Part shown: piece after piece, positions 13,401 to 29,929 of the stretch
Layout: each line of letters begins with the position of its first letter
Position numbering within the stretch: position 1 is the first letter of the stretch
Virus record (IMG/VR): IMGVR_UViG_3300028048_000065
Location: 1 to 64,000 of that record
Source of the DNA: a virus
Lineage: Duplodnaviria; Caudoviricetes
Strand: one strand, 5' to 3'
Length of the DNA: 64,000 nt
Made by a program: the position numbers and the translations under genes
The notes under the pieces: model-generated
Told to the model about the DNA's origin: nothing
The model's database searches: none
The model's input: the letters and a program-made list of their open reading frames with translations, nothing else

Positions 13401-15098
13401 TTATGCGCTGTATGCTGCCTCGAAGCAGTCATAACGAGGAACATTAAGCTGTTCAAGAAGAGCCTCCATAGGATTGGTCTTATCAGACAAAACCATCTTG
13501 AGGAGATTCGTGCTATAACCCGAAACCATGATACAACCGCGGTCATCAACCTTGAAAGGCAGGGCAAGACGATTGCTGCAATTTACTCTCCAAAAGGTAA
13601 TAATTGGCATTTTATACCCAGCATTCTTGAAGCGCTGATTAATCTCCTGCATAAAGGTCTTGTCAACAGGAGTACGATAACTGTACCAGCCATGACGATT
13701 TACCTTAGCATCGCACATGGAATCGAACTCGCCATCAGAGACAATGAGAATGCGCTCAGGCAGGTCAGACTGGGGAGAATGGTTGTCAATAGCGGTCTTA
13801 AGAATCAGGTCAAAGACCTTTTCCAGATTGGTATTAGAGCCATCCTGACACTCCCAAGTCTTACGAAGCTTGTTACAGAGGCTATCGTTATCATTAAAGC
13901 GTACAATATGAGGGTCAGCACTAAAGGTGATATACTTGTTTGCAAAAGCACCCTTGAGATGGTCTGCGCAATAAATGGCGAGAGACATAGCAACATCAAT
14001 GCAACGCATATTAGTGTTACCACCAATACCACTCTCCATAGAACCAGAGCAGTCACACACGACAAGCATACCCTTATCATCGGGAATCATATCAGGCAAA
14101 GCCTTCCACATACCCTCAAGAGTATCATCAGCCCTCTGAGGAAGTCCATACCAACGACCACTCAAATTCATGTACTTATTGACAATATCACAGGGATTCG
14201 CCACAGAAGCATTAATCTTAGCCTCACCAGTCTTGAGAGCAGCAAGAAAAGCCTGACGGCGCTCAGTATCATGGCGCAGGAATGCCTTGTTGTAGTTAAG
14301 ATTAGCCTTAGAGGGAACAGTTTCGTAGTCGATAGCAGCCCAATTATCCGAAGACATCTTGCGCTCAACAACATCAAGATACTTACGAAGAGCAGACAGA
14401 GCCTTACGATAGTTGCGTTCAGTCATGTTCAACTGCTTTGCAGTCCAAAGACCATTATCACGGGTCTGCTTAGAGTGAGAATTGGGCTTATCAAGCCACT
14501 TTCCAAGCAGAGAAATAGACTTATGCTGCTTCATGTTCTCCATGTCCTCAGCAAACTGCTTCTTAAGGAAATCGCGGACAGCCTTTTCAGAAGTGGGGTT
14601 GCCACGGAACTGATAAAGCATATCATAGCGAGAATACTCGCCAATCAGAGGAACGAGCTTTGCAGCAATGCTTGCACCGCCATTCTTTACAAGGTCACGA
14701 ATGACAATCTGAGTGAAGCGACGCTCGCCAGCACCGCAACGAATGTCCATCGTATAGCCAAGGAAACGCATAGCAAGATAAGGATTCTCATTGAAAGCCT
14801 TGCGCCAATCGGTGACAATCTGCTTCTCGTCCAGAGAACGGTAGCTTACCAACTTGGTAAACATATCAAGAAGAGCAGAAGAAGTAGTGGAATATGCCAC
14901 AGCACCATTGGTGGTATAGGTCATATTGTCGGGCAAAGACTTAGGAACAACCGCACGAACATAGAAGCCCTTGTTAGTCTTTTCCATCTTGTCGAAGAAC
15001 TTCTCCTTGTCCGACTTCTGACGCATAGGCTTTTCGGGCTTAGGAGACCAAGCCTTGTTAGAGTTCTTCTTGGAATTCTTGTTAATGTTATTATACAT
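13401..15098 (-). CDS. DUF2828-family protein (helical repeat + vWA; Ro60/TROVE-like architecture)
   Basis: TTNGAVAYSTT, DIRCGAGER, SLLGKW, IDYETVPSKA, vWA MIDAS DCSGSM, TNLEKVF, ILIVSDGEFD, SGYS; start moved to ATG 15098 (GGAG RBS); codon usage looks highly expressed. Confidence 0.85.
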   Translation of the reverse strand: MYNNINKNSKKNSNKAWSPKPEKPMRQKSDKEKFFDKMEKTNKGFYVRAVVPKSLPDNMTYTTNGAVAYSTTSSALLDMFTKLVSYRSLDEKQIVTDWRKAFNENPYLAMRFLGYTMDIRCGAGERRFTQIVIRDLVKNGGASIAAKLVPLIGEYSRYDMLYQFRGNPTSEKAVRDFLKKQFAEDMENMKQHKSISLLGKWLDKPNSHSKQTRDNGLWTAKQLNMTERNYRKALSALRKYLDVVERKMSSDNWAAIDYETVPSKANLNYNKAFLRHDTERRQAFLAALKTGEAKINASVANPCDIVNKYMNLSGRWYGLPQRADDTLEGMWKALPDMIPDDKGMLVVCDCSGSMESGIGGNTNMRCIDVAMSLAIYCADHLKGAFANKYITFSADPHIVRFNDNDSLCNKLRKTWECQDGSNTNLEKVFDLILKTAIDNHSPQSDLPERILIVSDGEFDSMCDAKVNRHGWYSYRTPVDKTFMQEINQRFKNAGYKMPIITFWRVNCSNRLALPFKVDDRGCIMVSGYSTNLLKMVLSDKTNPMEALLEQLNVPRYDCFEAAYSA

Positions 15099-15111
15099 AA
15101 TATTCTCCATT

Positions 15112-15152
15112 CTCGACCGCTTAATTTATTTTGAGTTTTGCTGAGTCGGTCG
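15112..15152 (-). promoter_or_regulatory. cargo-less ACAGCAA-stem element (E0) in the 5' UTR of the DUF2828 gene
   Basis: CGACCG-ACTCAGCAA...CGGTCGAG directly before the RBS; matches E1-E7. Confidence 0.75.
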
Positions 15153-15169
15153 CTTGTTTTGATATTAGG

Positions 15170-15198
15170 ATTATAGCACCTGACAGATAGTTTGTCAA
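15170..15198 (-). promoter_or_regulatory. sigmaA promoter of the DUF2828 gene
   Basis: TTGACA-17-TATAAT with TG. Confidence 0.8.
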
Positions 15199-15229
15199 GT
15201 GCTATAGAGAAATTTTTTCAAAAAAATTT

Positions 15230-15592
15230 TTACTTCTTTTTCTTAGCAGAAACGGTTTGAACACAAGTGTCACTTGTGGTTAGCTTCTCACGCTCTTCCT
15301 CAGAAATGCACCAAATAAAGGTTAGGTAATTCTGAATATCCTGAATCTTCTCAAGAACATCATCTCGATTACTAAAATTATTAGTTAGCACCATATCACG
15401 AAGAGCGATAATATGCTTAGTAGCATAATTCCAAGCGCACTGGGCAGAAGTACAAGACATAATCTTAGCACCCTCGTCAAAATTGTGAAGTGCATCATCA
15501 GGCTGAGAATAGCGAGCATTCTTTTCCTTAAGAGTTTTCACTCGTGTATTCTCAAGTTCGTCTACAAGACGGTTAAACTGTTCATGTGTCAT
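15230..15592 (-). CDS. DUF1599 / nucleotide-modification-associated domain-like protein
   Basis: KNARYS, ALHNF, EKIQDIQNY. Confidence 0.55.
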   Translation of the reverse strand: MTHEQFNRLVDELENTRVKTLKEKNARYSQPDDALHNFDEGAKIMSCTSAQCAWNYATKHIIALRDMVLTNNFSNRDDVLEKIQDIQNYLTFIWCISEEEREKLTTSDTCVQTVSAKKKK

Positions 15593-16269
15593 TTAAAAAT
15601 ACCTCAATTAAAAGTTAGTTTTTATTTATTATAGTTAATTATCGGTTGAAATATTTAAGGTCAGCTTTTTCACCATCAATAGTAACAGCGCAATAATTTT
15701 TCTTGCGACAACAAGGACAAACAAAATAAGTCATAAAAGAAGAATGAAAATTCCCGTCATAAGAAGTTGAGTCACTTTCAAAATGTTCGTCTGTATCATA
15801 ATCTGTTAGATTTAATTTAAGAATAGAATTGCAATTCCAACATTTTTCTCTTTTTACAGGAGCGTTATTTTCAACAATCCTCATTATGTTTCTCCTCAGA
15901 TAGATAATCATCAATAGTCATAAGATAGGGACAATCTTTTCTTTTCTCCAATTCACATTGACATTCGCTAATAGAGCAAACGCCGTAATATTTATTTCCA
16001 CAAAAAATACAATCGTAGGAATATTTGGGAATGGTGTCTACAATAATTTTCATACATCTACCTCTTAAAGTCCTTACAGCCAGCAAAACTTTCCTGTTCT
16101 CGATAATATTCGTTTTTAATAGGAGCAAAAAATAGATAAAAACGAAAAATTGTGGTTTTCGGTCAAAAAACCTGTTTTCAACCACAATATATTGTGGTCA
16201 GAAGATTTTGAAAACACAAGATATAGTAATTTTAACAGAATAAAATCGCAATTTTAATTACCTCTATCA

Positions 16270-16677
16270 TTACAATTTCTCCCAACCTTTCGGTGTAGTA
16301 TAATATACATTAATAATACCTCGCTCTTCCAGAGCCGTTTGACACGCTATACAAGGTCTCGCAAGTGCTAAAGAACCATCTTTATATTCCCTATAAGTGT
16401 AAATAGAGACTTTATTCCAATCCAAATCAAGAAATCTTGTTTTTAGCAGTAACATCGTTTCAGCATGAACCAATCCATTATTTTTGGGGTCAGAACTAAA
16501 ACGATATTTGTTATAGTATTTTTGAAGAGGGTTAGTTTTAAAAGTGTTATAGCCAACAGCTATCACTTTACCAGAATATACCATAACAGAACCAATTTTC
16601 TGTTTTGGATAGGTTGCTTGCTCAGATGCTTTTTTAGCTTTTGCAAAATAAGATTGTATAGTTTTTTCAGACGGCAT
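16270..16677 (-). CDS. zinc-dependent cytidine/dCMP deaminase family protein
   Basis: HAE and PCIAC motifs. Confidence 0.8.
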   Translation of the reverse strand: MPSEKTIQSYFAKAKKASEQATYPKQKIGSVMVYSGKVIAVGYNTFKTNPLQKYYNKYRFSSDPKNNGLVHAETMLLLKTRFLDLDWNKVSIYTYREYKDGSLALARPCIACQTALEERGIINVYYTTPKGWEKL

Positions 16678-16866
16678 AAAGACCTCGGTATTATAACATT
16701 TTTATTTCATCCTAACAATTAAAATGTTAGTATACTGCATCATACAGTTTCTTAATAAGTAGTTCAAAAAATAGCTTCTTTTCTTCCGCACTTGCATCAT
16801 AATATGCATTGCGAAAATCATTAGAGTCAATAGAACTTAGCACATATTCAAAAACATTGTTCATTT

Positions 16867-17277
16867 TTATTCTCCTTGTGGATATTCTCCCAGCATAAGA
16901 AGTTGAATGTCGCAAAATTTTGCCATTTTTTCGTTATATTTTTGAGCACATTTTGCCATAAATTCCCATTTTCCGATTTGCTTTTTGCCAATCATGCAAT
17001 CATAAAAGGGCTGATAATACTGTCCGAAATCTTCATCGTCAATAGCAATATAGTCATAATCGTTCCACTCATCAAGATGTAAAAGGTCTACCGTTACATT
17101 ACAATCAATTGAACTATGGAGAACAAAATTTTTAGAACTGTACCATAGATGTTCTCTCCCATCTTTTTGAGCGCCCCAAAATCCTTCTTTAAATCCATTT
17201 GCAAGAAGAAACTCAATCTGCTTATCTTGAGATAAGTTAATAAAATCGGGAGTGAGCTTATAACGATTGATTTTCAT
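16867..17277 (-). CDS. hypothetical protein
   Basis: ORF. Confidence 0.55.
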   Translation of the reverse strand: MKINRYKLTPDFINLSQDKQIEFLLANGFKEGFWGAQKDGREHLWYSSKNFVLHSSIDCNVTVDLLHLDEWNDYDYIAIDDEDFGQYYQPFYDCMIGKKQIGKWEFMAKCAQKYNEKMAKFCDIQLLMLGEYPQGE

Positions 17278-17628
17278 GTTTGTGCTCCTATTAATTAAAT
17301 CTCTTTAATATTTTTTGAAAAACGTTGCCCACAAAAAGGACAAAAATTATTATTGCGGGTCTCAGTCTTTTTTAGGGGGTGCTGACAAGTAGGGCAATAA
17401 TGAAAGTCCTGCAATTTATAATATAGAATATCTTTTGGAATATCTCTCTGTTTATTGTATCGAACAAGTTTTTCTTTCGGCTGAATACGAAGCTGATTAT
17501 GTTCCCAATCGAATCCCATAAAAATACTTTCAACCCCTGTTCCAGCACGAGGCCCTATTGACATTTCTTCCAAGGTAATAATTACATTGACTTCATCAGG
17601 GTTTACATACTTTGTCTCACAATAAGAA

Positions 17629-18027
17629 TCAACTATCTTTTTTAGTTCTGCTAAAGTCATGGTTCTTCTTTTCCTCACATTCCTCATAATAGAATTTGAT
17701 TGGATGCTCATTTTCAATTACATTCCCATAAATCAAGCCAATTTTATAAATATAATTTTCTTTGAGCTTTTTAGGGATTTCAAAAATATATCTGCGAAAT
17801 GTTTCAAGAGAATAAGCTCGTTTATAATGATTGCAAGACCTGCAACTTGGCATTAGGTTACTAATATCGTTACTCCGCTCTGCATTCCATCGTCTTTGAG
17901 GAATGAAATGGTCTATTTGCATATCTTTATACTCAATTTTACGTCCGCAATATGCACAGTGTCCATCATATTTATTATAGACTTGCTCTCGAATTTTCTT
18001 AGGAAAGGTCACGATTCTTCTCCGCAA
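17629..18027 (-). CDS. HNH endonuclease
   Basis: CAYCG, IDHFIP, NLMPSCRSCN. Confidence 0.85.
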   Translation of the reverse strand: MRRRIVTFPKKIREQVYNKYDGHCAYCGRKIEYKDMQIDHFIPQRRWNAERSNDISNLMPSCRSCNHYKRAYSLETFRRYIFEIPKKLKENYIYKIGLIYGNVIENEHPIKFYYEECEEKKNHDFSRTKKDS

Positions 18028-18278
18028 TCCAGCGACTTAAAGAAGCCGTGTAATTATTCATGTCATTAATATCATGCAGATGATAATAAGATTCAAAATA
18101 ATGCCAATGATAATAACAAGCAAAAATAAAATAAATACAACCATCAATATACCACAAAAGAGGATAGCCACTAAATGTGGACTGAATCAAAGTAAATAGC
18201 GCAGCTAAAACCCAAAAAGAAAACTGTTCATAATAAATGTCGGTCTTTTCCTCAAAAAAGTTCATGTTTTTTCTCCTC

Positions 18279-18653
18279 TTAACAAATATAAAAATATGTT
18301 ACATCAGCAAGGCTTTCTGTCGAATAATCTTCGCAATATGAAGTCCAGTCATTGATAACCCAAGCAAAGAAATGTTTAAGTCCTTTTACAGTTCCCCAAC
18401 CATTTGGGGATTCATATTGCTTATACTTTTCGGGATACTTTTCAAGCTCTGCCAAACCATTTGCAATGTGTGGAATAATATCCTTACAAAGTCCAAGACA
18501 ACCCTCAGCGCACCAATTCTTAAGTCCTGTAGACTTAATAATCATTTCTCGAACATTCCAAGTAATATTTGCATCGGTGTTATCACCATAAGGCTCGACA
18601 TATACATTATCTAAGCCCTCAACCTTTACTCGAAAACTAATATCATAACTCAT
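18279..18653 (-). CDS. conserved phage protein
   Basis: NITWNV and PNGWGT motifs. Confidence 0.55.
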   Translation of the reverse strand: MSYDISFRVKVEGLDNVYVEPYGDNTDANITWNVREMIIKSTGLKNWCAEGCLGLCKDIIPHIANGLAELEKYPEKYKQYESPNGWGTVKGLKHFFAWVINDWTSYCEDYSTESLADVTYFYIC

Positions 18654-19604
18654 TTTTATTCTCCTTCGTTTTTTTGGGGGACAATAACAACTTGTTGAAT
18701 TTTAAAGGAATTAAGCATATTATAATAAAGAAAATCTCTTTCTACTTTATAAAGGTCTATTGCAACAAAATAATTGAGCTGGTCTATATTAAAATCAGTC
18801 CGCAAAAGAACGGGAATTTTAACGTGACAAAAACAACCCTCTTCTACAATACCCTCAAAAATTATTCTTTTAGAAGAGTCAACAGTTCCAACGACTTTAT
18901 CTCCCGTTTCTGTCTCGATTACTACAGGAGCTCTGCAATTTTTATGTCCATTATAATATCTTATCATATTTTTAATTGCTTTTATAGTTGTATACCACCC
19001 AGCGGTAGTATAACTTACAAGAGGAAAATTAACTGTCGTAGTGTATTCGTAAACCATTTTAATTATCCTTTCCTAACGGGTTGTTTTCAGCGTCAATGGT
19101 TTTAATGTCGAAATCAGTTTTCTTACCAACTAATTCGGGATATTCGTTCTTCCAATCTCTTGAACGAACTGTAATTGAAACAGGAGTAGAGTCAAGAATC
19201 TCATAATCTTCCATGTAGGTTTTAAGAGAAATATCATAGTCATGGATATAAATTTCCTGAACCTGATAATAGTGATAATTTTCTACAATTTTAGTGTTTA
19301 TAATAGAAGACCAACTAATAGCAAGGATAAAAAGACCTAATCCAATTCTGGTTGCGATTTGACGGATAATGTTATCAATGGTAGATGCACAAACAAGGAG
19401 ACTTACAAAAGCTCCGACACACAAAAACACAGGCGCACTTGCAACAATAAAATTAGGTTGATAAGTAGTATAACTTACCAGATAAGAAGCGGCGATTTCC
19501 ATAACATCATACTCCTTTATTTTTATGTGCTTATTATAACAAAAGAAAAAAGGTTTGTCAAGACCTTTTAAGAAAAATCCTGACAAACCTTAAAGTTTAT
19601 TTTA

Positions 19605-20579
19605 TTACTCCTGAGAAAGTCGCTGACGAGTTGCAGGTCCACACTTACCATCAACTTCAAGCCCACGAGACTTCTGATAAGCCTTTAGAGTGTTGTAAGT
19701 ACCTGTACCAAAACTGCCATCAATATCACAAGTAAAACCAGCTTTACAAAGCTGTTGCTGCATCCAACTTACATCATCACCCTTGCACCAACGAACAAGT
19801 ACACGAGTGGGGAACTTGTGAGTATTTACTTCATACTCATTCTGCTGTCCCTTGCGCTCAAAAGTAATAATCGCATTGATAATACGGTTTTCGGATAGAG
19901 CATGAACTGTTTTGCCCTCATACTTCATAATCTCTGAGCCACCGCCATCCAGCTTAATGAGATTAGTAAAGCCCATTGGCTTAAACTTATAATAAGCTTC
20001 GGCATAAGGTGAAATCATATTACTGCGAGTGGACTTCCAATCCATAATATAAATATTGTTGTCATTAGGCTTAAGTCCCAGAAGAATATGATAAGTTGAG
20101 TAAAGTTCACTGCCAGTCCACCCCTGTGGCTTAACGTAATCTTTCCACATAACATTCTTGCCATCTTTAATGAGAGGAATACCTGCAATGGCGTATGTCA
20201 TAGTATCTCGCAGCTCGGTTAGGTCTTCCATATGCGGTTTGCCGTTTTCAATATAAAAAGTTGTAAGTGCATGACCACAAAACTGAGGAACACCGCCCTG
20301 TGCAACATAAGAATTGTAAAAATACTTTTCTCCCACAAACTTTCCGCGCAACTTATTATACTTTGCAAGTGGAGCTGAAGTGGCTTCAATGTCACAAACA
20401 AGATGATTTACAGGAAGGGTAAAATATTCTCCGCTTTCTTTAAATCCAGCAAAAAAGTTTGCGTTTACATAAGTCTTGTGATTTTTTACATTTTTCTTGG
20501 CACAATTTACCATCTTGATAGCAAATTCATCTACTGAGCCTGAAATAATTTTTACGCCGTTTTGAGTTGTTAGATTCAT
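19605..20579 (-). CDS. phosphodiester glycosidase (NAGPA-like) with C-terminal peptidoglycan-binding domain
   Basis: NANFF and LDGGGS; C-terminal GDDV..Q..L, DGSFG..T, DGKCGPAT. Confidence 0.75.
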   Translation of the reverse strand: MNLTTQNGVKIISGSVDEFAIKMVNCAKKNVKNHKTYVNANFFAGFKESGEYFTLPVNHLVCDIEATSAPLAKYNKLRGKFVGEKYFYNSYVAQGGVPQFCGHALTTFYIENGKPHMEDLTELRDTMTYAIAGIPLIKDGKNVMWKDYVKPQGWTGSELYSTYHILLGLKPNDNNIYIMDWKSTRSNMISPYAEAYYKFKPMGFTNLIKLDGGGSEIMKYEGKTVHALSENRIINAIITFERKGQQNEYEVNTHKFPTRVLVRWCKGDDVSWMQQQLCKAGFTCDIDGSFGTGTYNTLKAYQKSRGLEVDGKCGPATRQRLSQE

Positions 20580-22934: not shown

Positions 22935-23349
22935 TTTTTGTTTCTCCTTAAATTTGTCTAATTAAAATGTTTAAATTGTTTACTGTTACTATATATAAAA
23001 CTACAGGTGTAGCTTATTTTTTATTGTTTGAAACCAAAGCTACACCTGTATGGTTAGTAGCAAATATGACGAAGAGAATTAAAAATCTCAAGTCCTGCAA
23101 TATACCGTGCTTCTCGTAGACAATCTTCCATAAGAGCGTCCATTGCAGCGTGTCCTAAACCACCGTTCAAACTTGCGTCCCGCTCACAATCGTTGTAGAT
23201 TTGCTGAGCTCTTGCTTCAAATTCTTCATGGGTCATTCTGTTTTGGTTCCTTTTGCTGGGGTAAAATGTGTCTTGCGAAAGGACACATGAGGTACACTTA
23301 AGTTATTCGGAAACAAGGGAGAAGAATTAACTTCTCCCTTGAGAAGCGG

Positions 23350-23422
23350 CAGAGGAGATGGGACTCTCACCCATAACCTGCGGTTTTAGAGACCGCCGCT
23401 CTGATAATTGCGCTACTCCTCG
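23350..23422 (-). tRNA. amber-decoding tRNA (anticodon CUA), probably Gln
   Basis: cloverleaf: GAGGAG/CTCCTC acceptor with 1-72 mismatch, G73, anticodon arm GCGGT-CT-CTA-AA-ACCGC, T arm ATGGG/CCCAT with atypical loop. Confidence 0.85.
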
Positions 23423-23445: not shown

Positions 23446-23577
23446 CTCGACGCTAAAGAAAGGAAACTCACCACAAAGCTAATAAAACAACACACAAATT
23501 TGATTGAAGGAATCAATGATTTAGTAAATAAAATAGTATTTTTATCTAATTATAACCTATGTTGCTGTAAGCGTCGA
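23446..23577 (-). ncRNA. ACAGCAA-stem element E1
   Basis: TCGACGCT-TACAGCAA...AGCGTCGAG. Confidence 0.75.
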
Positions 23578-23676: not shown

Positions 23677-23681
23677 ATATT

Positions 23682-23744
23682 CTCGACCCTGTTTGAATTC
23701 TTAATTACCAGTTAAGTCCAAAAAAAGTTTGCTGTAAGGGTCGA
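23682..23744 (-). ncRNA. ACAGCAA-stem element E2 carrying a Thr(GGU)-type anticodon stem-loop
   Basis: TCGACCCT-TACAGCAA...CTTAA-CTGGTAA-TTAAG...AGGGTCGAG. Confidence 0.8.
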
Positions 23745-23791
23745 TAAAGAAAGGAAATTTTTATGATAAAAACTTATTAGGTTTTATCTTA

Positions 23792-24085
23792 TTAAACAAG
23801 AATCTGACTTGCAGTTTTCTTCTGCTCTCCCTCAAATTCATAATCAAGATGAGGATACATCTCAGGCTTTGTAATCTTGTTTTTACAAACAGGACACTGA
23901 TAAGTAAACTGTGGGGGATAAGTCATTAGCTGTGTAGGCTGTAGTTCCATCTCAGCCTTACACTTTGCACAATGAAGAGTCACCTTGAAAGTGCGAACTG
24001 CGTTTGTCTGTTGCTCATAAGTGTCAAGAACTGACTTATCAGCACCAATAATGGAAGGACCATTAGCAGTATTGATAATATCCAT
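23792..24085 (-). CDS. zinc-ribbon protein
   Basis: CAKC and CPVC. Confidence 0.6.
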   Translation of the reverse strand: MDIINTANGPSIIGADKSVLDTYEQQTNAVRTFKVTLHCAKCKAEMELQPTQLMTYPPQFTYQCPVCKNKITKPEMYPHLDYEFEGEQKKTASQILV

Positions 24086-24135
24086 TTAAAATGTTACTCC
24101 TTATTTTTGTTTTCAGGATTTATGCTATTTTTAGT

Positions 24136-24199
24136 CTCGACTCATTGTACAAATATAAACCTAAATTATATGTAGAAGAAAAATTGCTGTGAGAGTCGA
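24136..24199 (-). ncRNA. ACAGCAA-stem element E3 carrying a Leu(UAG)-type anticodon stem-loop
   Basis: TCGACTC-TCACAGCAA...TATAA-TTTAGGT-TTATA...GAGTCGAG. Confidence 0.8.
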
Positions 24200-24230
24200 T
24201 ATGGAGGAATCGAATGATTCATAATCATTG

Positions 24231-24306
24231 TGGCAGCCGATGAATGGGTCGAACATTCGTATGCGACGGTCAAAGCGTCGTGCCTTTACCACTTGGCTAA
24301 TCGGCT
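24231..24306 (-). tRNA. tRNA-Gln(UUG)
   Basis: CGACG-CT-TTG-AC-CGTCG, G73, CCA. Confidence 0.9.
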
Positions 24307-24445
24307 ATATTTAAAAAAACAAGAACTTCGGTTGGGACTTTCGATTCCTCACCCAACAACTCCAACATACCCTCCGAAGAGGTTGACCGACAGGAGGCAG
24401 TTTAATTTATTTATCGTGTTTTACTACCACGAAGTTCTTGGTTTT

Positions 24446-24516
24446 AGTGGAAGAGGGTAATCGAAACCCCACTTACGGAATCGGAGACCGTGGTTCTACC
24501 ATTAAACTACTTCCAC
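24446..24516 (-). tRNA. atypical tRNA, anticodon CCG (Arg) with U73, no encoded CCA
   Basis: GTGGAAG/CTTCCAC acceptor, D and T arms present, 31-39 mismatch. Confidence 0.6.
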
Positions 24517-24533
24517 ATTTATTTTATATACTA

Positions 24534-24562
24534 AGTATAGCACATATTTTGTAGTTTGTCAA
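24534..24562 (-). promoter_or_regulatory. sigmaA promoter upstream of the tRNA block ending in the CUA tRNA
   Basis: TTGACA-17-TATACT with TG. Confidence 0.75.
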
Positions 24563-24590
24563 GTCTTTTTTAGACTTTATTTTTCTCAAA

Positions 24591-24747
24591 CAAGAGAAGA
24601 AGTGCTCAACCATTGTGCAAAAAAGAAAGGAGGCGATTTCAAAATGAAACCCAAAAAAATGAACAGAAAGTTGAGAACAAACAAAGGAGAACTGTTAGTT
24701 ACAAACTATACCAATTGACAAAGCAATGGGAGCACGTTCTTCTCTTG
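24591..24747 (-). ncRNA. candidate sRNA with its own promoter (24759-24787)
   Basis: terminal inverted repeat; CU-rich anti-SD tracts. Confidence 0.5.
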
Positions 24748-24764
24748 ATTGTGACTTAATTATA

Positions 24765-25082
24765 TCACAGATTTTCAAGATTGTCAAGAGTTTTTTCAGA
24801 ATTATTTTTTGTGTTTTTAGAAACTCCATAAATCTCCTGAGTTACCTTGCGACGCTCAAGCTCATTCTTATAAGCCTTTTCACGAGCATCAACGTTCATG
24901 TCATTATATGCAGCAACATAAACTTCATTACCACACTCTTCACAGAACGCAATTTTTTCATCATAACTAAAATTAATTCCACGAATAGTAAGATTAACTT
25001 TAGCTACATCTGTATCATAGCCAACCATCTTATTACAATGAATACAAAAGACCGTTGGCTTAGAATTCTTAAAATCAAACAT
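24765..25082 (-). CDS. YgiT/MqsA-type zinc finger protein
   Basis: CIHC...IRG...CEECGNEVY. Confidence 0.6.
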   Translation of the reverse strand: MFDFKNSKPTVFCIHCNKMVGYDTDVAKVNLTIRGINFSYDEKIAFCEECGNEVYVAAYNDMNVDAREKAYKNELERRKVTQEIYGVSKNTKNNSEKTLDNLENL

Positions 25083-25139
25083 CAGAATAAAACTCCGTTT
25101 TTATTTATCTATTTTAACCCAAATTTGCAACTTTTTGGG

Positions 25140-25652
25140 TCAAATTTGACGGTTTTCGCGTGTATTTACCCAATATCCCGCCATGCTATATTTGGGGACA
25201 CCAGTAACCTCGGTTGCAATCATCTCAGGCCAAGGGAATTTATATTTCTTAGCTTCTGCTGTAGATTCAAATTCTACCTCAGCATAAGCCCAAGTATCAT
25301 CAACAATACTAATTTCAATAGGCTTTTGACCATCCATATAGACAGTAAAACGTTCTTTCTTGATAGCCTTTTTTCCTGTTTCCTTACTCATTTTAGCAAC
25401 AAACTTTCGAGCAGAAAAAAGCTTATCTTCAAACTCAAGCCTTTCAAGTCCATTACCAACTTTGTAAGTCAACTTGCCATTATTAGAGCCAGCTTTATAA
25501 CGAATACGAGTTTCGCTGATGATGTGATTATCAGAATCAACGATTATCTCAAGATAATACTGCCACAACTGCTCTCTAATAACGTTAGCTTTATCTGGAA
25601 AATTAAAATCTCCGCCCTTTAGAAGCCATTTACGTTCAATTTCTTTACTCAT
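25140..25652 (-). CDS. CYTH (triphosphate tunnel metalloenzyme) domain protein
   Basis: EIERKW, KLTYK, AEVEF, EVTG motifs. Confidence 0.85.
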   Translation of the reverse strand: MSKEIERKWLLKGGDFNFPDKANVIREQLWQYYLEIIVDSDNHIISETRIRYKAGSNNGKLTYKVGNGLERLEFEDKLFSARKFVAKMSKETGKKAIKKERFTVYMDGQKPIEISIVDDTWAYAEVEFESTAEAKKYKFPWPEMIATEVTGVPKYSMAGYWVNTRENRQI

Positions 25653-25722
25653 ATTTTACCTCATCAGGTTCATAGTTTTTGTTGAGGATATAATTATTGG
25701 GTCATTTCCTTTTCTATAAAGT

Positions 25723-25798
25723 TGGGGTCTGAGGCAAGAATCGAACTTGCGTAGCTCTGCTTATGAGACAGAGCAGGTAAACCAACAACCTCTCAGAC
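25723..25798 (-). tRNA. tRNA with CAU anticodon (Met or Ile2)
   Basis: loop CT-CAT-AA, TTCGA T arm, CCA; unusual C73. Confidence 0.8.
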
Positions 25799-25821
25799 AT
25801 ATTTCTATTTTATTTTTAAAA

Positions 25822-25951
25822 CTCGACACATTTTATACATTCTGTTGCTCTACCCGTTGAGCTATGTCCGCATATTGGTGCGGACAGCAGGATTCGAACC
25901 TACAACACACAGGCCCTTGCCAGTATTAAATTTTGTTGCTGTTAGTGTCGA
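25822..25951 (-). ncRNA. ACAGCAA-stem element E4 containing a circularly permuted tRNA mimic (YrlA-like)
   Basis: T arm GTAGG-TTCGAAT-CCTGC, acceptor TGTCCGC-ACCAATAT-GCGGACA, D arm GCTC-AACGGGTA-GAGC. Confidence 0.85.
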
Positions 25952-25983
25952 AGCAAAATGAGGAGGCTCATCACATCGAGCCG

Positions 25984-26060
25984 TGGTAGCTCGGGTGGAA
26001 TTCGAATCCACACTTGACGGATTTTGAATCCGCTCTCTCTGCCGATTGGAGTACCGAGCC
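25984..26060 (-). tRNA. tRNA-Leu(CAA) with short variable loop
   Basis: GCGGA-TT-CAA-AA-TCCGT, A73, CCA. Confidence 0.85.
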
Positions 26061-26462
26061 ATATTCAGTTTAGCAACTACTGACAGACCAGCTTTCCACA
26101 TATCTGCCCTCGGTTCGATTGGGGAGAGGTTTACAGGAATATTCCTACAAACTTGCACCCAATTATCTCGGTCATTTTCATTGCTAAACTTAATATTTGC
26201 TGTCTCTCCAAGCTGTCACCGCTAATATGGTTGTAGGTTCTGGACGGTCTGAACTTAGTTACGCCATACACACATCTTAACCTTGAGAGATAGTCCATCG
26301 GTTAAGCGAAGCTCTATCTTGATAAATTTGCAAGATACTATCATGCTTTCTGGTTCGAGGTGCTTATATCGGAGTCACTATAGCGCATTTTTTCATCCCC
26401 TTACACAATTTTCAAAGCAGCAACTCGTTTACTAATTGTTTATCGGTTTATCCGAACCTCGA

Positions 26463-26584
26463 TGGACCCTACAACTGGAATCGAACCAGAATACCTCCCC
26501 CGATGCGTCTGTTATCACTAAAGAGCTACTTTAGTGTTTGCTCAACAGTCAGTTAATAGGTGTGCTCCTTACACCAAGTAGGGA
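26463..26584 (-). ncRNA. tRNA-like RNA with ~60-nt insertion replacing the anticodon loop
   Basis: CCCTAC/GTAGGG acceptor, TGGTGTAAGGAGCAC D arm, CTGG-TTCGATT-CCAG T arm, CCA. Confidence 0.6.
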
Positions 26585-26705
26585 TATAAAAGGGAACCCA
26601 GCTTTATCTCGCCCTTAACGACCGTTCCCAATGCCGAACACCATACTCGTGCTTTTACTGCTTCTAATACTACGAATTTATTACGAGCAGCTATAATAAA
26701 TTCTG

Positions 26706-26792
26706 TGGCGGAGACAACAGGACTCGAACCTGTATTACCTTTCGGTAAGCTTGTTTAGCAAACAAGAGAGATGACCATTACTCCATGCCTCC
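26706..26792 (-). tRNA. tRNA-Ser(GCU)
   Basis: CTTGT-TT-GCT-AA-ACAAG, long variable arm, G73, CCA. Confidence 0.9.
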
Positions 26793-26807
26793 ATATAAGT
26801 GAGCAAA

Positions 26808-26931
26808 CTCGACACTTTTATTCAGGCCAGCCAGACTTAGACATTCCTTGCTCAAGGGTTATTCTAATAGGGAGTCGAACCCTACATGATGTTTTTTCAA
26901 GAACATTAAGTAAAATTGCTGTGAGTGTCGA
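26808..26931 (-). ncRNA. ACAGCAA-stem element E5 (Ser(UGA)-like loop plus T arm)
   Basis: TCGACACT-CACAGCAA...ATGTT-CTTGAAAA-AACAT...TAGGG-TTCGACT-CCCTA...AGTGTCGAG. Confidence 0.75.
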
Positions 26932-27078
26932 ATGGACATTAAACATTTACAAAAGAATCTGGTAGTCGGATTGAACTTCCTCTTCACCGACTGTTCGGAG
27001 GGTTAGTCACCTTAATCCTCTTGAAGAGTAGGATTCTCATACAGTCTAACCGTAGCATGAGTTATGCTTAATTACCTC

Positions 27079-27138
27079 AGTAACTAAGAAGTTGTTTAGA
27101 TAAGTTCGCTACGCTTACCTCGTGGAATATCCACGCAC
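27079..27138. repeat. 60-bp direct repeat, copy 1
   Basis: 59/60 identical to 27353-27412. Confidence 0.95.
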
Positions 27139-27352
27139 TCAGAGGTTGCTCATGAGCGATGTAACTCTTCTAATCGGAGCGAAGCTACCCCTTTCTTCAT
27201 ATTGAATAGAGTCAACCAAAGATGAACGCTCATTGGTAGCGCCTGTTGGTTTCGGAAATAGGTCCCGTCAGATTTTTCACATCACCGAGGTATCTGAAAC
27301 ATACCTTTGCCTTAACTTAAAGGATTAAGTTTGAGTGATTAATCACACCTAT

Positions 27353-27412
27353 AGTAACTAAGAAGTTGTTTAGGTAAGTTCGCTACGCTTACCTCGTGGA
27401 ATATCCACGCAC
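27353..27412. repeat. 60-bp direct repeat, copy 2
   Basis: 59/60 identical to 27079-27138. Confidence 0.95.
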
Positions 27413-27775
27413 GATTTTCCACCACTCGGGATTCTTATCACATTAGCACCCTGATAAGTTTCACCAACTATATATCGTGTTCTTCCCTTTTCATTTTCTG
27501 CTTCGAACGCCAATTGCTTGCGCTCTACTCCAAGACTTCGGACGGGAGTTGGGGCTTTAGCTTAACGGACTAAAGATGAGTTCAAATATATGGAACACCG
27601 ACAAGGCTTTAGCCATCCTTGCTGAATCGGGCAGTTAAATATAAGTTACATTCGCTATCTGCCAATTGAATGTAAATTATTGAATGGGTGATGTTTTGTT
27701 AGTCTATCACCAAGACTATGGGAGTTGGGTTGTTTTGAGACTCACCAACCATTCGTCTTCCTTGATTGTGTACTT

Positions 27776-27804
27776 AGTATAGCACATTTTGCTTTGTTTG
27801 TCAA
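27776..27804 (-). promoter_or_regulatory. sigmaA promoter upstream of the long non-coding region
   Basis: TTGACA-17-TATACT with TG. Confidence 0.75.
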
Positions 27805-27852
27805 GGGTTTTTAAAATATTTTTTAAAAATTTTTCAAAAACCTTAAAGCATC

Positions 27853-28141
27853 TAAAAACAAGATGTGGTATCTATGACCCAGTTTCATGGTGACTTATTA
27901 CAGTGGGAGCATCTAAAGGTTGTTACCCTTTACTTGAAGTCTCTCCCGACAACCCTTTTATCAAGGGCAGCGTCTAATCCGTATCATTCGGTTTTCCCGA
28001 CTCATTTCGGATTGCGGATTTCTTACCTACCGCCGTAATACCTACTGACCTGTCTATGCCAGCCCCGACCCGTCTTATCATTATACACAGACTATAAAAT
28101 CTGCTTTATTGAGTCAACTGCCGTTAGCCATCTTGTTTTTA
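27853..28141 (-). ncRNA. candidate ~290-nt structured ncRNA
   Basis: 13-bp terminal inverted repeat, promoter at 28152-28180 just upstream, raised GC, no ORF in the track. Confidence 0.55.
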
Positions 28142-28322
28142 GTGTAACTTAAGTATATCACAACATTTTGTGTTTGTCAAGGGGTTTTTAAACTTTTTTG
28201 AAAACTTTTTAAGAAATCTTTTTTTGTGACTTCTTAATTTATATATTAAGTATAGCACAGATTCCTAAGTTTGTCAAGAAGTTTAGAATAAAAATTTTCT
28301 TTTATTATGTATTGAAAATCAT

Positions 28323-28625
28323 TTAATCTTCAACCTCAATTCTAAGAATCTCTTTCTGGTTGGGCAACGTAATTGCTTCTAAACTAAGGTTTGTTTTAAC
28401 AAAATAATCTTGTGAAAATTCAATAGATAGATTGTTTAATGGTTGAACCATTTGAGTGATAAAACAATTCTTTCCATTTATTTTAGTTTTTATCTTTAGA
28501 GCAAAAGGCTTTCCAGAATCAAGGTCAAGACAAGACATATCAAAATAGCTTGTGCCGCAATACGGACATTTATTTAATTCAATATTAAATGGAGCCCCGC
28601 AGTTAATACAATTTCTACTTGACAT
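28323..28625 (-). CDS. zinc-ribbon protein
   Basis: CINCGAP and CPYCG. Confidence 0.6.
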   Translation of the reverse strand: MSSRNCINCGAPFNIELNKCPYCGTSYFDMSCLDLDSGKPFALKIKTKINGKNCFITQMVQPLNNLSIEFSQDYFVKTNLSLEAITLPNQKEILRIEVED

Positions 28626-28652
28626 GACAAATCCTTTTCTGCGTTAAATTTT

Positions 28653-28726
28653 CTCGACACTATATTATGTACGTTTATGAACCCAAATCATATGTATTTA
28701 ATATAAAAAGTTGCTGTGAGTGTCGA
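28653..28726 (-). ncRNA. ACAGCAA-stem element E6 carrying a Pro(UGG)-type anticodon stem-loop
   Basis: TCGACACT-CACAGCAA...TATGA-TTTGGGT-TCATA...AGTGTCGAG. Confidence 0.8.
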
Positions 28727-28861
28727 TAAGTAGTATGGTAAATGGTAGTCGGGTTTAGTATAAAGTTCACCGACCATTCGCTTAGCCTTCACTGTATCGT
28801 AGTTAAGGAGACCAAATATTACACGGGCAAAGTAAGTTTACACATTCTTGCCACTGGTGGC

Positions 28862-28937
28862 TGGCGGGAAATGTAAGGCTTGAACTTACGCCATCATGAT
28901 TAACAGTCATGCGCTCTACCAACTGAGCTAATCTCCC
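28862..28937 (-). tRNA. tRNA-Asn(GUU)
   Basis: CATGA-CT-GTT-AA-TCATG, G73, CCA. Confidence 0.95.
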
Positions 28938-29310
28938 ATTTCCTGTTTTATAATTTTCGTTGGAATTCTTCAACTTTCTTTTTAACTGTGGTCACAGAAG
29001 CGTGAGAACAATTATTATGTCTGAAAAGAAGATTGCCGTTTTTATCGAAAACCTCAAAATATCCAATCTTTTTATTATTTTTTACATAAAGACCAAGATA
29101 TTCAAAATCTTTTCCAGACCAAGGTTTCATATTAAACACTCCTTTTTGGTCGGCTTCTTGCTTAGATTATCACATCGTCTACTTAGGAGTCATAGTCCTG
29201 TTCATAAATCGCCATGTATACCTAACGATTCCGCAGTTTTCAGCAAGCATTGTTATTCTTTGTGGGGTAAGCCGATAATCGCCCACATCAGTTTGGAGCT
29301 ACCAAACAAT

Positions 29311-29387
29311 TGGTGCGCCAGAGGAGACTCGAACTCCTGACCTATTGCTTAAAAGGCAATTGCTGCTACCTACTGAGCTACTGGCGC
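29311..29387 (-). tRNA. tRNA-Lys(UUU)
   Basis: ATTGC-CT-TTT-AA-GCAAT, CCA. Confidence 0.95.
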
Positions 29388-29800
29388 ATATTATTTCGGT
29401 TTGGGAACGCTACTGGTTTTCAAGTGTTCCAACTCAAAATAGGAGCGTACTAACAAGAAACGCAGTAGGTTCTTCTACCTATTTAAATAGCAAGATTGAA
29501 TGTGATTGGCATACCACGTTTTAGGGAACTTTGAAACCACTCTTGCTAAATAAAACAAATTTTTTATTCTTCTTTTAATAAGAAGGTGTGTACCCAAAAC
29601 CGTTAAAATGGTACACTCGCTACCTTTTAATTTTATAGTTGGGAAGGTGTCTTTTAGCAACAACCCCAAGTAAGTGAGGCTGGTGAACTACAATTCCCCG
29701 TGAGTTATCTTACTTTCTCACAGTTACCGATTAACCAACTTTATGTATTTATTATACCATATTGATTTTGATTTGTCAATAGGTTAATAACTTTTTTATT

Positions 29801-29929
29801 CTCGACTCTTTAATAAATTCACGAAGCTGTCTTACCACTTGACTAATCCTCTCAGGGAAAGGATTATGGAATCGAACCATAGTTTGCTTCTTTGGTAAGA
29901 ATATTATAAAAAATTGCTGTAAGAGTCGA
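29801..29929 (-). ncRNA. ACAGCAA-stem element E7 containing a circularly permuted tRNA mimic (YrlA-like)
   Basis: GAAGC/GCTTC stem, T arm TATGG-TTCGATT-CCATA, looped acceptor ATCCT/AGGAT, D arm GTC-AAGTGGTAA-GAC. Confidence 0.85.

What the first reader, a model, noticed from the sequence alone, without database searches (positions are those of the whole stretch)
13401..29929. Candidate new RNP system: DUF2828 (Ro60/TROVE-like) protein with a family of eight ACAGCAA-stem RNAs carrying swappable tRNA-derived cargo
Seen in sequence: seven minus-strand elements between the tRNA genes (23446-23577, 23682-23744, 24136-24199, 25822-25951, 26808-26931, 28653-28726, 29801-29929) share 5'-TCGAC-N-CT-N-ACAGCAA ... 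G-N'-GTCGAG-3'. The ends pair, and the variable pair occurs as G-C, C-G, U-A and A-U in different copies, so structure is conserved while ACAGCAA is invariant and unpaired. The interiors are unrelated and mostly tRNA-derived. An eighth, cargo-less copy sits in the 5' UTR of the DUF2828 gene. Established: Ro60/Rsr (helical ring + vWA) binds the terminal stem of Y RNAs, and bacterial YrlA Y RNAs carry tRNA-like effector domains. Inference: DUF2828 (helical N-terminus + MIDAS vWA) is a Ro60-like scaffold that binds the ACAGCAA stem and displays a library of tRNA mimics. I know of no description of RNA partners for DUF2828.
Basis: partly seen in the sequence, partly recalled or inferred. Interest (0 to 1): 0.95.

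Follow-up and report, generated by a model that had tools for sequence, protein, structure and literature searches.

The report
Phage Ro60-like protein, ACAGCAA-handle RNAs
A large phage carries seven small RNA genes that share one "handle" (a 7-bp end-to-end stem followed by ACAGCAA) and hold tRNA look-alike parts, plus a protein predicted to fold like the RNA-binding ring Ro60. This gene-RNA pairing recurs in very different phages and I found no paper describing it, so it is probably a second kind of Ro60/Y-RNA particle.

Summary
Seven minus-strand elements lie at exactly the stated coordinates. A covariance model trained mainly on other phages recovers those seven and nothing else in the window. 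The eighth copy, in the 5' UTR, is degenerate.

- **Fold:** the DUF2828/DUF7788 protein model matches Ro60 over both domains (Z 17.7 to Thermus phage Ro60), but no TROVE sequence match exists.
- **Co-location:** in 60 viral loci encoding homologues (30-94% identity), the same stem-NN-ACAGCAA...stem'-G design lies beside the gene on its strand, with 58 different stem sequences.
- **Co-occurrence:** of records found through the RNA alone, 34/40 encode the protein (18/18 near-complete ones), against 5/49 chance-match records.
- **Cargo:** T arm + closed acceptor + D arm (E4, E5, E7; E4 is a sub-threshold Rfam YrlA hit) or anticodon-stem-loop-like hairpins (E2, E3, E6).

No Rfam family matches the handle, and no paper I found links DUF2828 to an RNA. 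The handle does match the published pattern of Dictyostelium Class I RNAs, which were reported as unique to social amoebae.

Binding and function are inferred, not shown. This scan has already reported the same system on other DNA, in at least 278 genomes.

The parts
13401..15110 (-). Gene for the Ro60-like protein (DUF2828 + DUF7788/vWA, 569 aa as the longest ORF). The likely true start is the ATG at 15098 (M5), which is invariant in the homologues and preceded by GGAG.
   Evidence: Pfam PF25043 at 7e-39 and PF11443 at 8e-28. PHROG 850 'RNA-binding protein' at 4e-115. Whole-length structural match to Ro60. The MIDAS residues D353, S355, S357, T427 and D459, and many Arg/Lys in the helical part, are invariant in 30 homologues.
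15112..15153 (-). E0: a degenerate, cargo-less handle at the 5' end of the protein's mRNA (GCGACCG-AC-UCAGCAA ... CGGUCGA-G). It ends 4 nt before the GGAG ribosome-binding site and is a probable autoregulatory operator.
   Evidence: The core is identical in the four related contigs, and canonical handles occupy the same position in at least 7 other lineages. The model does not find it, so its status is probable, not shown.
15170..15198 (-). Consensus promoter (TTGACA-17-TATAAT with an upstream TG) driving E0 and the protein gene.
   Evidence: 12 of 12 hexamer matches.
23446..23577 (-). E1: handle TCGACGC/GCGTCGA-G with a 108-nt A+U-rich cargo of unknown kind.
   Evidence: Exact motif. Model score 28.1 bits, E 5e-4, and not in the training set. 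Fold z -2.7. The cargo is replaced in relative G003.
23682..23744 (-). E2: handle TCGACCC/GGGTCGA-G. The cargo is an anticodon-stem-loop-like hairpin, CUUAA-CUGGUAA-UUAAG.
   Evidence: Its central loop base is G, U or C in otherwise near-identical orthologues.
24136..24199 (-). E3: handle TCGACTC/GAGTCGA-G. The cargo is a hairpin with the 7-nt loop UUUAGGU. It lies 50 nt upstream of a 97-aa zinc-ribbon ORF.
   Evidence: The loop differs among orthologues.
25822..25951 (-). E4: handle TCGACAC/GTGTCGA-G. The cargo is a T arm, an acceptor stem closed by a loop, and a D arm (YrlA topology).
   Evidence: Rfam YrlA RF02553 at 37.1 bits, E 4e-5, below the gathering score of 69. Fold z -4.1. G003 has compensatory changes in the T stem and the acceptor and lacks CCA.
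26808..26931 (-). E5: handle TCGACAC/GTGTCGA-G. The cargo is an anticodon-arm-like hairpin, a T arm, a short closed acceptor and a D-like arm.
   Evidence: 34.7 bits, not in the training set.
28653..28726 (-). E6: handle TCGACAC/GTGTCGA-G. The cargo is a hairpin with the 7-nt loop UUUGGGU. It lies 27 nt upstream of a 100-aa zinc-ribbon ORF.
   Evidence: (z -3.5).
29801..29929 (-). E7: handle TCGACTC/GAGTCGA-G. The cargo is a T arm, a loop-closed acceptor and a D arm.
   Evidence: z -4.3; 33.9 bits, not in the training set.
29968..29996 (-). Promoter (TTGACA-17-TAATAT with TG) about 30 nt upstream of E7. The next strong promoter starts 22 nt after E7 ends, so E7 is close to a transcription unit of its own.

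Best explanation
The seven elements are genes for small non-coding RNAs that share a protein-binding handle. The 5' and 3' ends pair in a 7-bp clamp helix whose sequence is free to vary. Two variable bases and an invariant single-stranded ACAGCAA follow the 5' strand, and an invariant G follows the 3' strand.

The partner is the DUF2828/DUF7788 protein encoded 8-16 kb away. It is a structural relative of Ro60: a helical-repeat ring plus a vWA domain with a complete MIDAS site. Together they would form Y-RNA-like particles.

The variable interior of each RNA is a tRNA mimic. It is either an L-shaped body (T arm, closed acceptor, D arm, the topology of bacterial YrlA) or a bare anticodon-stem-loop look-alike. 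Such a part would let the particle engage proteins that recognise tRNA. The Ro60-like ring could be tethered to a tRNA-handling enzyme, as Y RNAs tether Ro60 to PNPase. Alternatively, the RNAs could act as decoys for host anticodon-directed nucleases.

The degenerate handle at the 5' end of the protein's own mRNA, just before the ribosome-binding site, would let the protein repress its own translation.

Shown here: the RNA architecture and its covariation, the strand-specific co-location and co-occurrence with the gene across distant phages, and the Ro60-like predicted fold.

Inferred: physical binding, the role of ACAGCAA as the contact, autoregulation, and the tether or decoy function.
For: Architecture. 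The motif is exact in 7 copies. The model finds only these seven in 64 kb. 33 of 35 orthologous copies in five genomes keep ACAGCAA.

Covariation. Across loci there are 154 distinct perfect elements with 58 different 5' arms. On 27 short elements, all 7 pairs change on both sides, and slid controls pair in 20-48% of cells. That set was chosen for perfect pairing, so the fair test is the next one. 93 of 306 ACAGCAA occurrences in DUF2828 loci have a perfect 7-bp arm plus G, against 0-3 for seven control heptamers.

Association. 92 of 93 elements are on the gene's strand, mostly within a few hundred bases of it, in lineages down to 30% protein identity. All 33 model hits are on the gene's strand. 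Among records found through the RNA pattern alone, 34/40 encode the protein and 18/18 of those at least 90% complete do. Among chance-match records the figures are 5/49 and 3/11. Mycobacterium phage Moostard (GenBank MZ622183) has three canonical elements in the unannotated gap right after its 'Ro-like RNA binding protein' gene.

Protein. The best structural matches are Ro60, over both domains. MIDAS and many basic residues are invariant.

Cargo. There is a sub-threshold YrlA hit on E4 and on elements of two other lineages. G003's E4 shows compensatory changes in the T stem and acceptor. Hairpins with a 5-bp stem and a 7-nt loop bearing U33/R37 number 39, against 4.9 in shuffles (maximum 11).

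Precedent. Rsr-Y RNA-PNPase and tRNA-like YrlA encoded next to rsr (PMC4201824). Thermus phage Ro60 binds two adjacent phage-encoded Y-like RNAs and host PNPase (PMC12135203).
Against: - There is no expression or binding data of any kind.
- In this window the RNAs are 8-16 kb from the gene, not adjacent. The one adjacent copy (E0) is degenerate and the model does not detect it.
- The protein has no sequence-level match to TROVE: Pfam shows no hit, and a profile search against PDB gives E 1.1.
- The model is of middling confidence (pLDDT 68.7, pTM 0.52; residues 1-75 and 250-303 are poor).
- The handle lacks the CGAA/GNCGAA motif that Ro60 contacts in Y RNAs, so the binding mode cannot simply be transferred.
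- A complete 28.7-kb phage contig carries one element but no DUF2828 gene.
- About ten DUF2828 loci (for example L199-L201, L208, L209, L212, L221) show no strict element within 10 kb.
- The DUF2828 gene often sits inside tRNA arrays, so some of the co-location could be indirect.
Confidence: 0.7

Rival explanations
1. The handle is an RNA-processing or stabilising signal of phage tRNA-array transcripts, read by a host or other phage factor (an RNase or an end-protecting clamp). It travels with DUF2828 only because both live in tRNA arrays.
For: The elements lie between tRNA genes here and in L183 and L206. One complete phage has an element but no DUF2828 gene. One element encloses a normally ordered tRNA-like gene, as a leader-trailer duplex would.
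Against: Canonical copies sit in the 5' UTR of the DUF2828 gene itself in many lineages. In Moostard three elements follow the gene, while the only annotated tRNA in the fetched stretch lies more than 1 kb upstream. All 18 near-complete genomes found through the RNA carry the gene, against 3/11 controls.
Confidence: 0.12
2. The handle is mainly a cis-acting translational operator. The DUF2828 protein is a repressor of a small regulon (itself and the small zinc-ribbon ORFs after E3 and E6), not the core of a stable particle.
For: E0, E3 and E6 lie 11, 50 and 27 nt upstream of start codons. 5'-UTR copies are conserved in other lineages.
Against: E1, E2, E4, E5 and E7 are followed by tRNA genes or promoters, not ORFs. 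Operators have no need for structured tRNA-like cargo. E7 has its own promoter and no ORF.
Confidence: 0.1
3. The elements are DNA-level features: inverted-repeat-bounded cassettes or miniature mobile elements recognised by a recombinase as DNA.
For: The ends are 7-bp inverted repeats, and the cargo differs between paralogues and between some orthologues.
Against: There is strict strand bias: 92/93 on the gene's strand. The conserved ACAGCAA and the 3' G are asymmetric. Among single-mismatch copies, G-U wobbles (21) outnumber A-C (8), as expected for RNA read from this strand. The copies are syntenic, not scattered.
Confidence: 0.03
4. E4, E5 and E7 are circularly permuted tRNA genes that are processed into working tRNAs.
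For: The 3'-half-then-5'-half order and an intact ACCA in E4.
Against: The ACCA is lost in the G003 orthologue although the stems covary. E5 and E7 have no CCA and have short or irregular acceptors. The same handle carries bare hairpins or nothing. No anticodon loop would be recreated by joining the ends.
Confidence: 0.02

Closest known systems
Ro60 (Rsr, TROVE + vWA) with Y RNAs, especially bacterial and phage YrlA (Rfam RF02553; Chen et al. 2014, PMC4201824) and Thermus phage phiLo Ro60 with Yrl1/Yrl2 (PMC12135203)
   Same: The protein is predicted to have the same two-domain architecture (helical ring + vWA with MIDAS), and its best structural match is a phage Ro60. The RNAs are small, closed by a 5'/3' terminal stem and encoded beside the gene in most lineages. 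Several carry a tRNA-like module with a T arm, a D arm and a loop-closed acceptor, as in YrlA.
   Different: The protein belongs to other Pfam families (DUF2828 + DUF7788) and has no detectable TROVE sequence similarity. The conserved RNA element is a 7-bp clamp plus single-stranded ACAGCAA, not the bulged helix with the CGAA/GNCGAA motif. There are many paralogous RNAs per genome (7-9 here). Cargo includes bare anticodon-stem-loop look-alikes and whole anticodon arms, which YrlA lacks.
Class I RNAs of Dictyostelium and other dictyostelids (Aspegren 2004; Mosig 2006, PMC5054030; Kjellin 2021, PMC7919456)
   Same: Same design: a short stem joining the 5' and 3' ends, with free sequence and compensatory changes; a conserved unpaired motif directly after the 5' strand; and a variable remainder, about 60 nt in all. 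The published D. discoideum search pattern is GTTGRCCTTACAGCAA ... GTCAACTG. The five positions reported as nearly invariant in all dictyostelids (T3, C6, C9, A10, A11 of the 11-nt motif) are the same letters in this window's N-C-T-N-ACAGCAA. The genes are multi-copy and clustered.
   Different: Class I RNAs are eukaryotic nuclear genes with their own promoter element (DUSE). They were reported as absent outside Dictyostelia, have no tRNA-like cargo described, and their only proven direct binder is the RRM protein Rnp1A/CIBP. Common descent was not tested here. I could not check whether dictyostelids encode a DUF2828 protein.
Phage tRNA arrays as a counter to host tRNA-cleaving defences
   Same: The elements are embedded in a 10-tRNA array, and their cargo imitates tRNA parts, including anticodon loops that vary between near-identical phages.
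   Different: These RNAs cannot act as tRNAs (no free acceptor end), and they carry a protein-binding handle.

Membership tests
Ro60 / TROVE protein family | Helical-repeat ring followed by a vWA domain (whole-length fold) | tested here: met
   Foldseek: the 13 best PDB hits are all Ro60/TROVE, E 5e-8 to 2e-5, 511-590 columns. VIA-align: Z 17.7 (394 residues, rmsd 6.2) to 9kop, 16.4 to 9l5y, 11.3-13.2 to other Ro60. vWA-only chains reach at most 10.8. The model has pLDDT 68.7, so this is a predicted fold.
Ro60 / TROVE protein family | Sequence match to Pfam TROVE (PF05731) | tested here: not met
   No TROVE hit at E<=0.1; only DUF7788, DUF2828 and a weak VWA_2. No TROVE match in the 149-kb record. 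A profile of 30 homologues against PDB sequences gives phiLo TROVE at E 1.1 only.
Ro60 / TROVE protein family | MIDAS motif (DxSxS ... T ... D) in the vWA domain | tested here: met
   D353, S355, S357, T427 and D459 are invariant in 30 homologues.
Ro60 / TROVE protein family | Binds Y RNA and misfolded RNA | not testable with these tools
   Needs RIP/CLIP or EMSA.
Y RNA / YrlA (Rfam RF02553) | Reaches the family's gathering score | tested here: not met
   E4 scores 37.1 bits against a gathering score of 69. The match covers the T arm, acceptor and D arm only, and the Ro60-binding helices of the model are deleted or misaligned. No other element matches.
Y RNA / YrlA (Rfam RF02553) | Terminal 5'/3' stem plus a tRNA-like module with a loop-closed acceptor | tested here: met
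   Met for E4, E5 and E7. Not met for E1, E2, E3 and E6, which carry other cargo.
Y RNA / YrlA (Rfam RF02553) | Conserved Ro60-contact motif GNCGAA(N)G / CGAA near the 5' end (PMC4201824, PMC12135203) | tested here: not met
   Read directly from the sequences. Across lineages the handle consensus is (A/U)AG(A/G)CNC-NN-ACAGCAA, with no conserved CGAA.
Dictyostelid Class I RNA | Short stem joining the 5' and 3' ends, with structure but not sequence conserved | tested here: met
   A 7-bp stem with 58 distinct arm sequences. The Class I stem is 6 bp, and the first motif base is often paired (PMC7919456).
Dictyostelid Class I RNA | Conserved 11-nt unpaired motif directly after the 5' stem strand | tested here: met
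   The published D. discoideum pattern contains CCTTACAGCAA (PMC5054030). Its invariant positions T3, C6, C9, A10 and A11 (PMC7919456) equal this window's N-C-T-N-A-C-A-G-C-A-A. The comparison was with published text only. No Class I sequence was available to align or to score with my model.
Dictyostelid Class I RNA | Common descent with the amoebal genes, and a shared protein partner | not testable with these tools
The domain content of DDB_G0281243, the uncharacterised protein pulled down with Class I RNA DdR-21 (bioRxiv 10.1101/2020.04.05.026054), could not be looked up.

The most novel reading that the evidence does not exclude
The phage ACAGCAA-handle RNAs and the Class I RNAs of social amoebae are one RNA family, and a DUF2828-type Ro60-like protein is the conserved partner in both. 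Class I RNAs have had no known function since 2004 and were published as unique to Dictyostelia. On this reading they would be the amoebal branch of a widespread, mostly viral, second Ro/Y-RNA system. In phages, the fast-changing anticodon-loop cargo would serve as decoys or tethers in the conflict over tRNA.
Probability: 0.3. Interest if true: 0.92.

Novelty: new variant of a known kind. Interest (0 to 1): 0.8.

Why it matters
Ro60/Y-RNA particles are a classic RNA-surveillance system, but their tRNA-like bacterial Y RNAs still lack a known effector. This finding points to a second, sequence-unrelated branch of that system.

- **It is widespread.** Homologues of the protein occur in 704 deposited phage genomes, including Felix O1-type, Listeria, Staphylococcus, Campylobacter, Vibrio and mycobacteriophages. 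The RNAs are unannotated in the one deposited record I inspected (Moostard).
- **It is modular.** One genome holds seven to nine RNAs with the same handle and different tRNA-mimic cargo. That looks like a scaffold built to present or capture tRNA-shaped things, inside the phage's tRNA array.
- **It is testable.** The system is present in phages of laboratory hosts (E. coli, Salmonella, M. smegmatis), so binding, processing and any role against tRNA-cleaving defences can be tested directly.
- **It gives a lead on an old puzzle.** The match to Dictyostelium Class I RNAs gives a concrete candidate partner for an abundant RNA class that has been unexplained for two decades.

Tried and rejected
- **Known RNA family:** rejected. 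Rfam 15 at gathering scores gives only the 10 tRNAs. A permissive scan gives a sub-threshold YrlA hit on E4 and nothing on the handle or the short elements, here or in three other lineages.
- **Chance motif:** rejected.
- **Functional permuted tRNA genes:** rejected, because CCA is not conserved while the stems covary.
- **DNA inverted-repeat cassette:** rejected on strand bias and G-U excess.
- **E0 as a full member:** not supported by the model. I keep it as a probable degenerate operator on positional grounds.
- **Sequence-level homology to Ro60:** searched and not found.
- **RNA-repair or PNPase genes next to the protein gene:** none found. Ten neighbouring ORFs gave only a deaminase, an endolysin-like protein, zinc ribbons and unknowns.
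- **Papers linking DUF2828 or a Ro-like protein to this RNA or to Class I RNAs:** none found in nine full-text searches.
- **Not done:** Avesson et al. 2011 is not held. No DUF2828 homologue was found in the 11.3 kb fetched from a contig binned as a giant virus that carries three tandem elements.

Full report
**What is in the window**

The stretch 23.3-30.6 kb holds ten minus-strand tRNA genes, about ten strong sigma-70-type promoters with extended -10 boxes and several unannotated structured RNAs. Each starts with TCGAC-N-C-T-N-ACAGCAA and ends with G-N'-GTCGA-G.

N/N' is G-C in E1, C-G in E2, U-A in E3 and E7, and A-U in E4, E5 and E6. Every copy folds with its two ends paired and ACAGCAA mostly unpaired. 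The folding energy beats shuffles (z -2.5 to -4.3) for all but E5.

The window is part of a 149-kb virus record. Four related IMG/VR contigs (165-219 kb, protein 88-94% identical) carry the same seven elements in the same order, each with its own N/N' pair. Only 2 of the 35 orthologous copies have a substitution in ACAGCAA. A further conserved copy (TCGTCGC-TA-ACAGCAA, closing with one G-U pair) lies outside the window, near base 139,780 of the record.

**Is it more than chance?**

I built a covariance model from 27 short elements, 24 of them from other phages. With filters off, it finds exactly the seven elements in the 64-kb window, at 25.5-53 bits. The four long ones were not in the training set. 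The next hit scores 14.9 bits, E 0.65.

The eighth copy, E0 (15112-15153), is not found. It reads UCAGCAA and pairs over 6 bp only, and a relaxed pattern scan cannot separate it from noise.

**The protein**

ORF 13401-15110(-) matches Pfam DUF7788 (7e-39) and DUF2828 (8e-28), with a weak VWA_2 hit and no TROVE hit. It also matches PHROG 850 'RNA-binding protein' (4e-115). The conserved start is probably the ATG at 15098.

An AlphaFold2 model from a 30-sequence alignment (pLDDT 68.7; residues 76-250 and the vWA domain are well predicted) has Ro60/TROVE chains as its 13 best Foldseek hits, over 511-590 columns. VIA-align gives these scores:

| Target | Z |
|---|---|
| Thermus phage phiLo Ro60 (9kop, 9l5y) | 17.7 and 16.4 |
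| Frog, human and Deinococcus Ro60 | 11.3-13.2 |
| vWA-only chains | at most 10.8 |

The MIDAS residues and many Arg/Lys of the helical part are invariant. At sequence level there is no significant link to Ro60, and the record has no TROVE gene.

In GenBank, homologues occur in 704 phage records. They are annotated 'RNA-binding protein', 'Ro-like RNA binding protein', 'DUF2828 family protein', 'vWFA protein' or hypothetical. The protein's Ro-likeness is therefore already in annotation. The RNA partner is what is undescribed.

**Link between RNA and protein**

I fetched 60 viral loci encoding homologues of 30-94% identity, oriented with the gene on the + strand. A design search (7-nt arm, 2 nt, ACAGCAA, perfect complement within 260 nt, then G) gave these results:

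- There were 93 hits among 306 ACAGCAA occurrences, against 0-3 for seven control heptamers.
- 92 of the 93 are on the gene's strand. Most lie just upstream or downstream of the gene.
- The arm sequence differs by lineage (TAGACTC, TAAGCNC, AAGACNC, GAGATGC, AGGATAG, AGACCGT, TGGGTAT and others). After a second scan there are 154 distinct elements with 58 different arms.
- On the 27-sequence alignment, all seven pairs change on both sides, and slid controls pair in only 20-48% of cells. Those rows were chosen for perfect pairing, so the heptamer control is the fair statistic.
- Among copies with one non-Watson-Crick pair, G-U (21) outnumbers A-C (8), as expected for RNA read from this strand.

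The converse test started from the RNA alone. A collection scan for AAGACACNNACAGCAA returned 111 loci, of which 42 held complete elements.

| Records | Encode a DUF2828 homologue | Among records at least 90% complete |
|---|---|---|
| With complete elements | 34/40 | 18/18 |
| Chance match to the 16-mer only | 5/49 | 3/11 |

An independent, cultured example is Mycobacterium phage Moostard (MZ622183). It has three canonical elements (TGGACNN arms, one with a tRNA-like body) in the unannotated 380-nt gap right after its 'Ro-like RNA binding protein' gene, followed by a terminator.

There are exceptions. A complete 28.7-kb contig has one TCGACAC-type element between two terminator-like hairpins and no DUF2828 gene. 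About ten DUF2828 loci have no strict element within 10 kb.

**The 5'-UTR copy**

E0 is identical in its ends in the four relatives. In one of them the loop sequence differs while the ends are kept.

In at least seven other lineages a canonical handle ends 8-45 nt before the start codon of the protein gene, often abutting the ribosome-binding site. Here a perfect promoter (15170-15198) puts the transcription start about 10 nt before E0, and E0 ends 4 nt before GGAG. Autoregulation is a reasonable inference but is not shown.

**Cargo**

- **E4, E5, E7:** a T arm with a GGUUCGAnUCC loop, an acceptor stem closed by a loop, and a D arm. This is the topology of YrlA.
- **E4:** the only element with an Rfam hit (YrlA, 37.1 bits, E 4e-5, below the gathering score of 69). 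The match covers the tRNA-like body only.
- **E4 in relative G003:** the T stem and the acceptor change by compensatory substitutions and the ACCA is lost. The structure, not tRNA function, is under selection.
- **E2, E3, E6 (and E5 in the relatives):** a hairpin with a 5-bp stem and a 7-nt loop that has U at position 2 and a purine at position 6, like an anticodon loop.
- **All elements together:** such hairpins number 39, against 4.9 in shuffles (maximum 11). About a quarter of them are T arms.
- **Other lineages:** some cargo is a complete mimic (anticodon arm, T arm, closed acceptor, D arm; L210, L183). One element encloses a normally ordered tRNA-like gene with an 8-nt anticodon loop.
- **Variation between close relatives:** among the four near-identical genomes, the three 'anticodon' columns of E2, E3 and E6 vary in 4 of 9 cases, against 21 of 199 other columns (Fisher p = 0.014; small sample). 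E2 reads GGU, GUU or GCU on an unchanged stem.
- **E1:** cargo is unrecognisable, and it is replaced in G003.

**Comparison with what is known**

Function and design are closest to Ro60 with Y RNAs. Those are small RNAs with a terminal stem, encoded next to the protein gene and often tRNA-like, that tether Ro60 to PNPase (PMC4201824). A phage Ro60 binds two adjacent Y-like RNAs and host PNPase (PMC12135203).

Membership fails on two defining features. There is no TROVE sequence match. The Ro60-contact motif CGAA/GNCGAA is absent, replaced by single-stranded ACAGCAA.

The handle itself matches another known RNA class. Dictyostelium Class I RNAs are 42-65 nt, with a 6-bp stem joining the ends (structure conserved, sequence not) and an 11-nt unpaired motif next to the 5' strand (PMC7919456). 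The published search pattern is GTTGRCCTTACAGCAA ... GTCAACTG (PMC5054030). The five near-invariant positions of that motif are the same letters here.

Those RNAs were reported as absent outside Dictyostelia. Their proven direct binder is an RRM protein. One of the four proteins pulled down with DdR-21, DDB_G0281243, is uncharacterised, and I could not look up its domains.

**Verdict**

This is a widespread phage RNA-protein pairing that most likely works like Ro60/Y RNA but with a different protein family and a different RNA handle. Binding, processing, autoregulation and the tether or decoy role of the tRNA-mimic cargo are inferences.

I found no published description of the RNA family in phages. 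The same system has been reported many times by this scan on other genomes.

Noticed in passing
window 27980-28128 (-): Match to Rfam RAGATH-33 (RF03102) at 118.6 bits, just under its gathering score of 120.4 (E 9e-25), directly downstream of a strong promoter at 28152-28180.
   Followed up: no
window 23348-23422 (-): ARAGORN calls a tRNA with anticodon CUA (labelled Pyl), which is a candidate amber-suppressor tRNA. Homologues of the protein in related records show in-frame TAA, TAG or TGA in six-frame matches, so stop-codon use in this phage group deserves a look.
   Followed up: no
window 26960-27055 and 28743-28802 (-): Just upstream of E5 and E6 lies a second shared motif (GTCGGTGAA ... 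CCGACTACCA), a hairpin ending in ACCA. It may be a separate small RNA or a processing element.
   Followed up: no
window 26960-27800 (-): About 800 nt of promoter-driven (27776-27804), ORF-poor sequence that is G+C-richer than its surroundings and has a near-perfect 60-nt internal repeat. No Rfam match at E<=10.
   Followed up: no
L013:3362-3429 (IMGVR_UViG_3300045988_050277, 28.7 kb, rated 100% complete): A small phage with no DUF2828 homologue carries a single element with exactly this window's stem type (TCGACAC ... GTGTCGA-G), set between two terminator-like hairpins. It is possibly an RNA that exploits or sponges the protein of a co-infecting large phage.
   Followed up: partly
L227:10584-11176 (-) (IMGVR_UViG_GVMAG-M-3300017963-53_000001, 15.6 kb): Three tandem 51-52-nt elements (AAGACAC-TA-ACAGCAA ... 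GTGTCTT-G) lie on a contig binned as a giant-virus MAG. There is no DUF2828 match in the 11.3 kb fetched, and the record is not held for whole-record search.
   Followed up: partly
L336:3998-4256 (Mycobacterium phage Moostard MZ622183.1, about 42303-42561): Three unannotated handle RNAs lie directly after gene 54 ('Ro-like RNA binding protein'). One has a tRNA-like body and one an anticodon-loop-like hairpin (CUGCUAA). This is a cultured phage of a laboratory host, so it is a ready test system.
   Followed up: yes
L183:4431-4504: Inside one handle element of a distant lineage, ARAGORN calls a normally ordered tRNA with an 8-nt anticodon loop (four-base anticodon UGAA). Rfam tRNA scores it at 47.8 bits.
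   Followed up: partly
window 25140-25652 (-): A 170-aa ORF inside the tRNA/ncRNA array starts MSKEIERKWLL, which recalls the ExExK signature of CYTH triphosphate-tunnel enzymes (from memory). Pfam gave no hit, and PHROG 6660 is of unknown function.
   Followed up: partly
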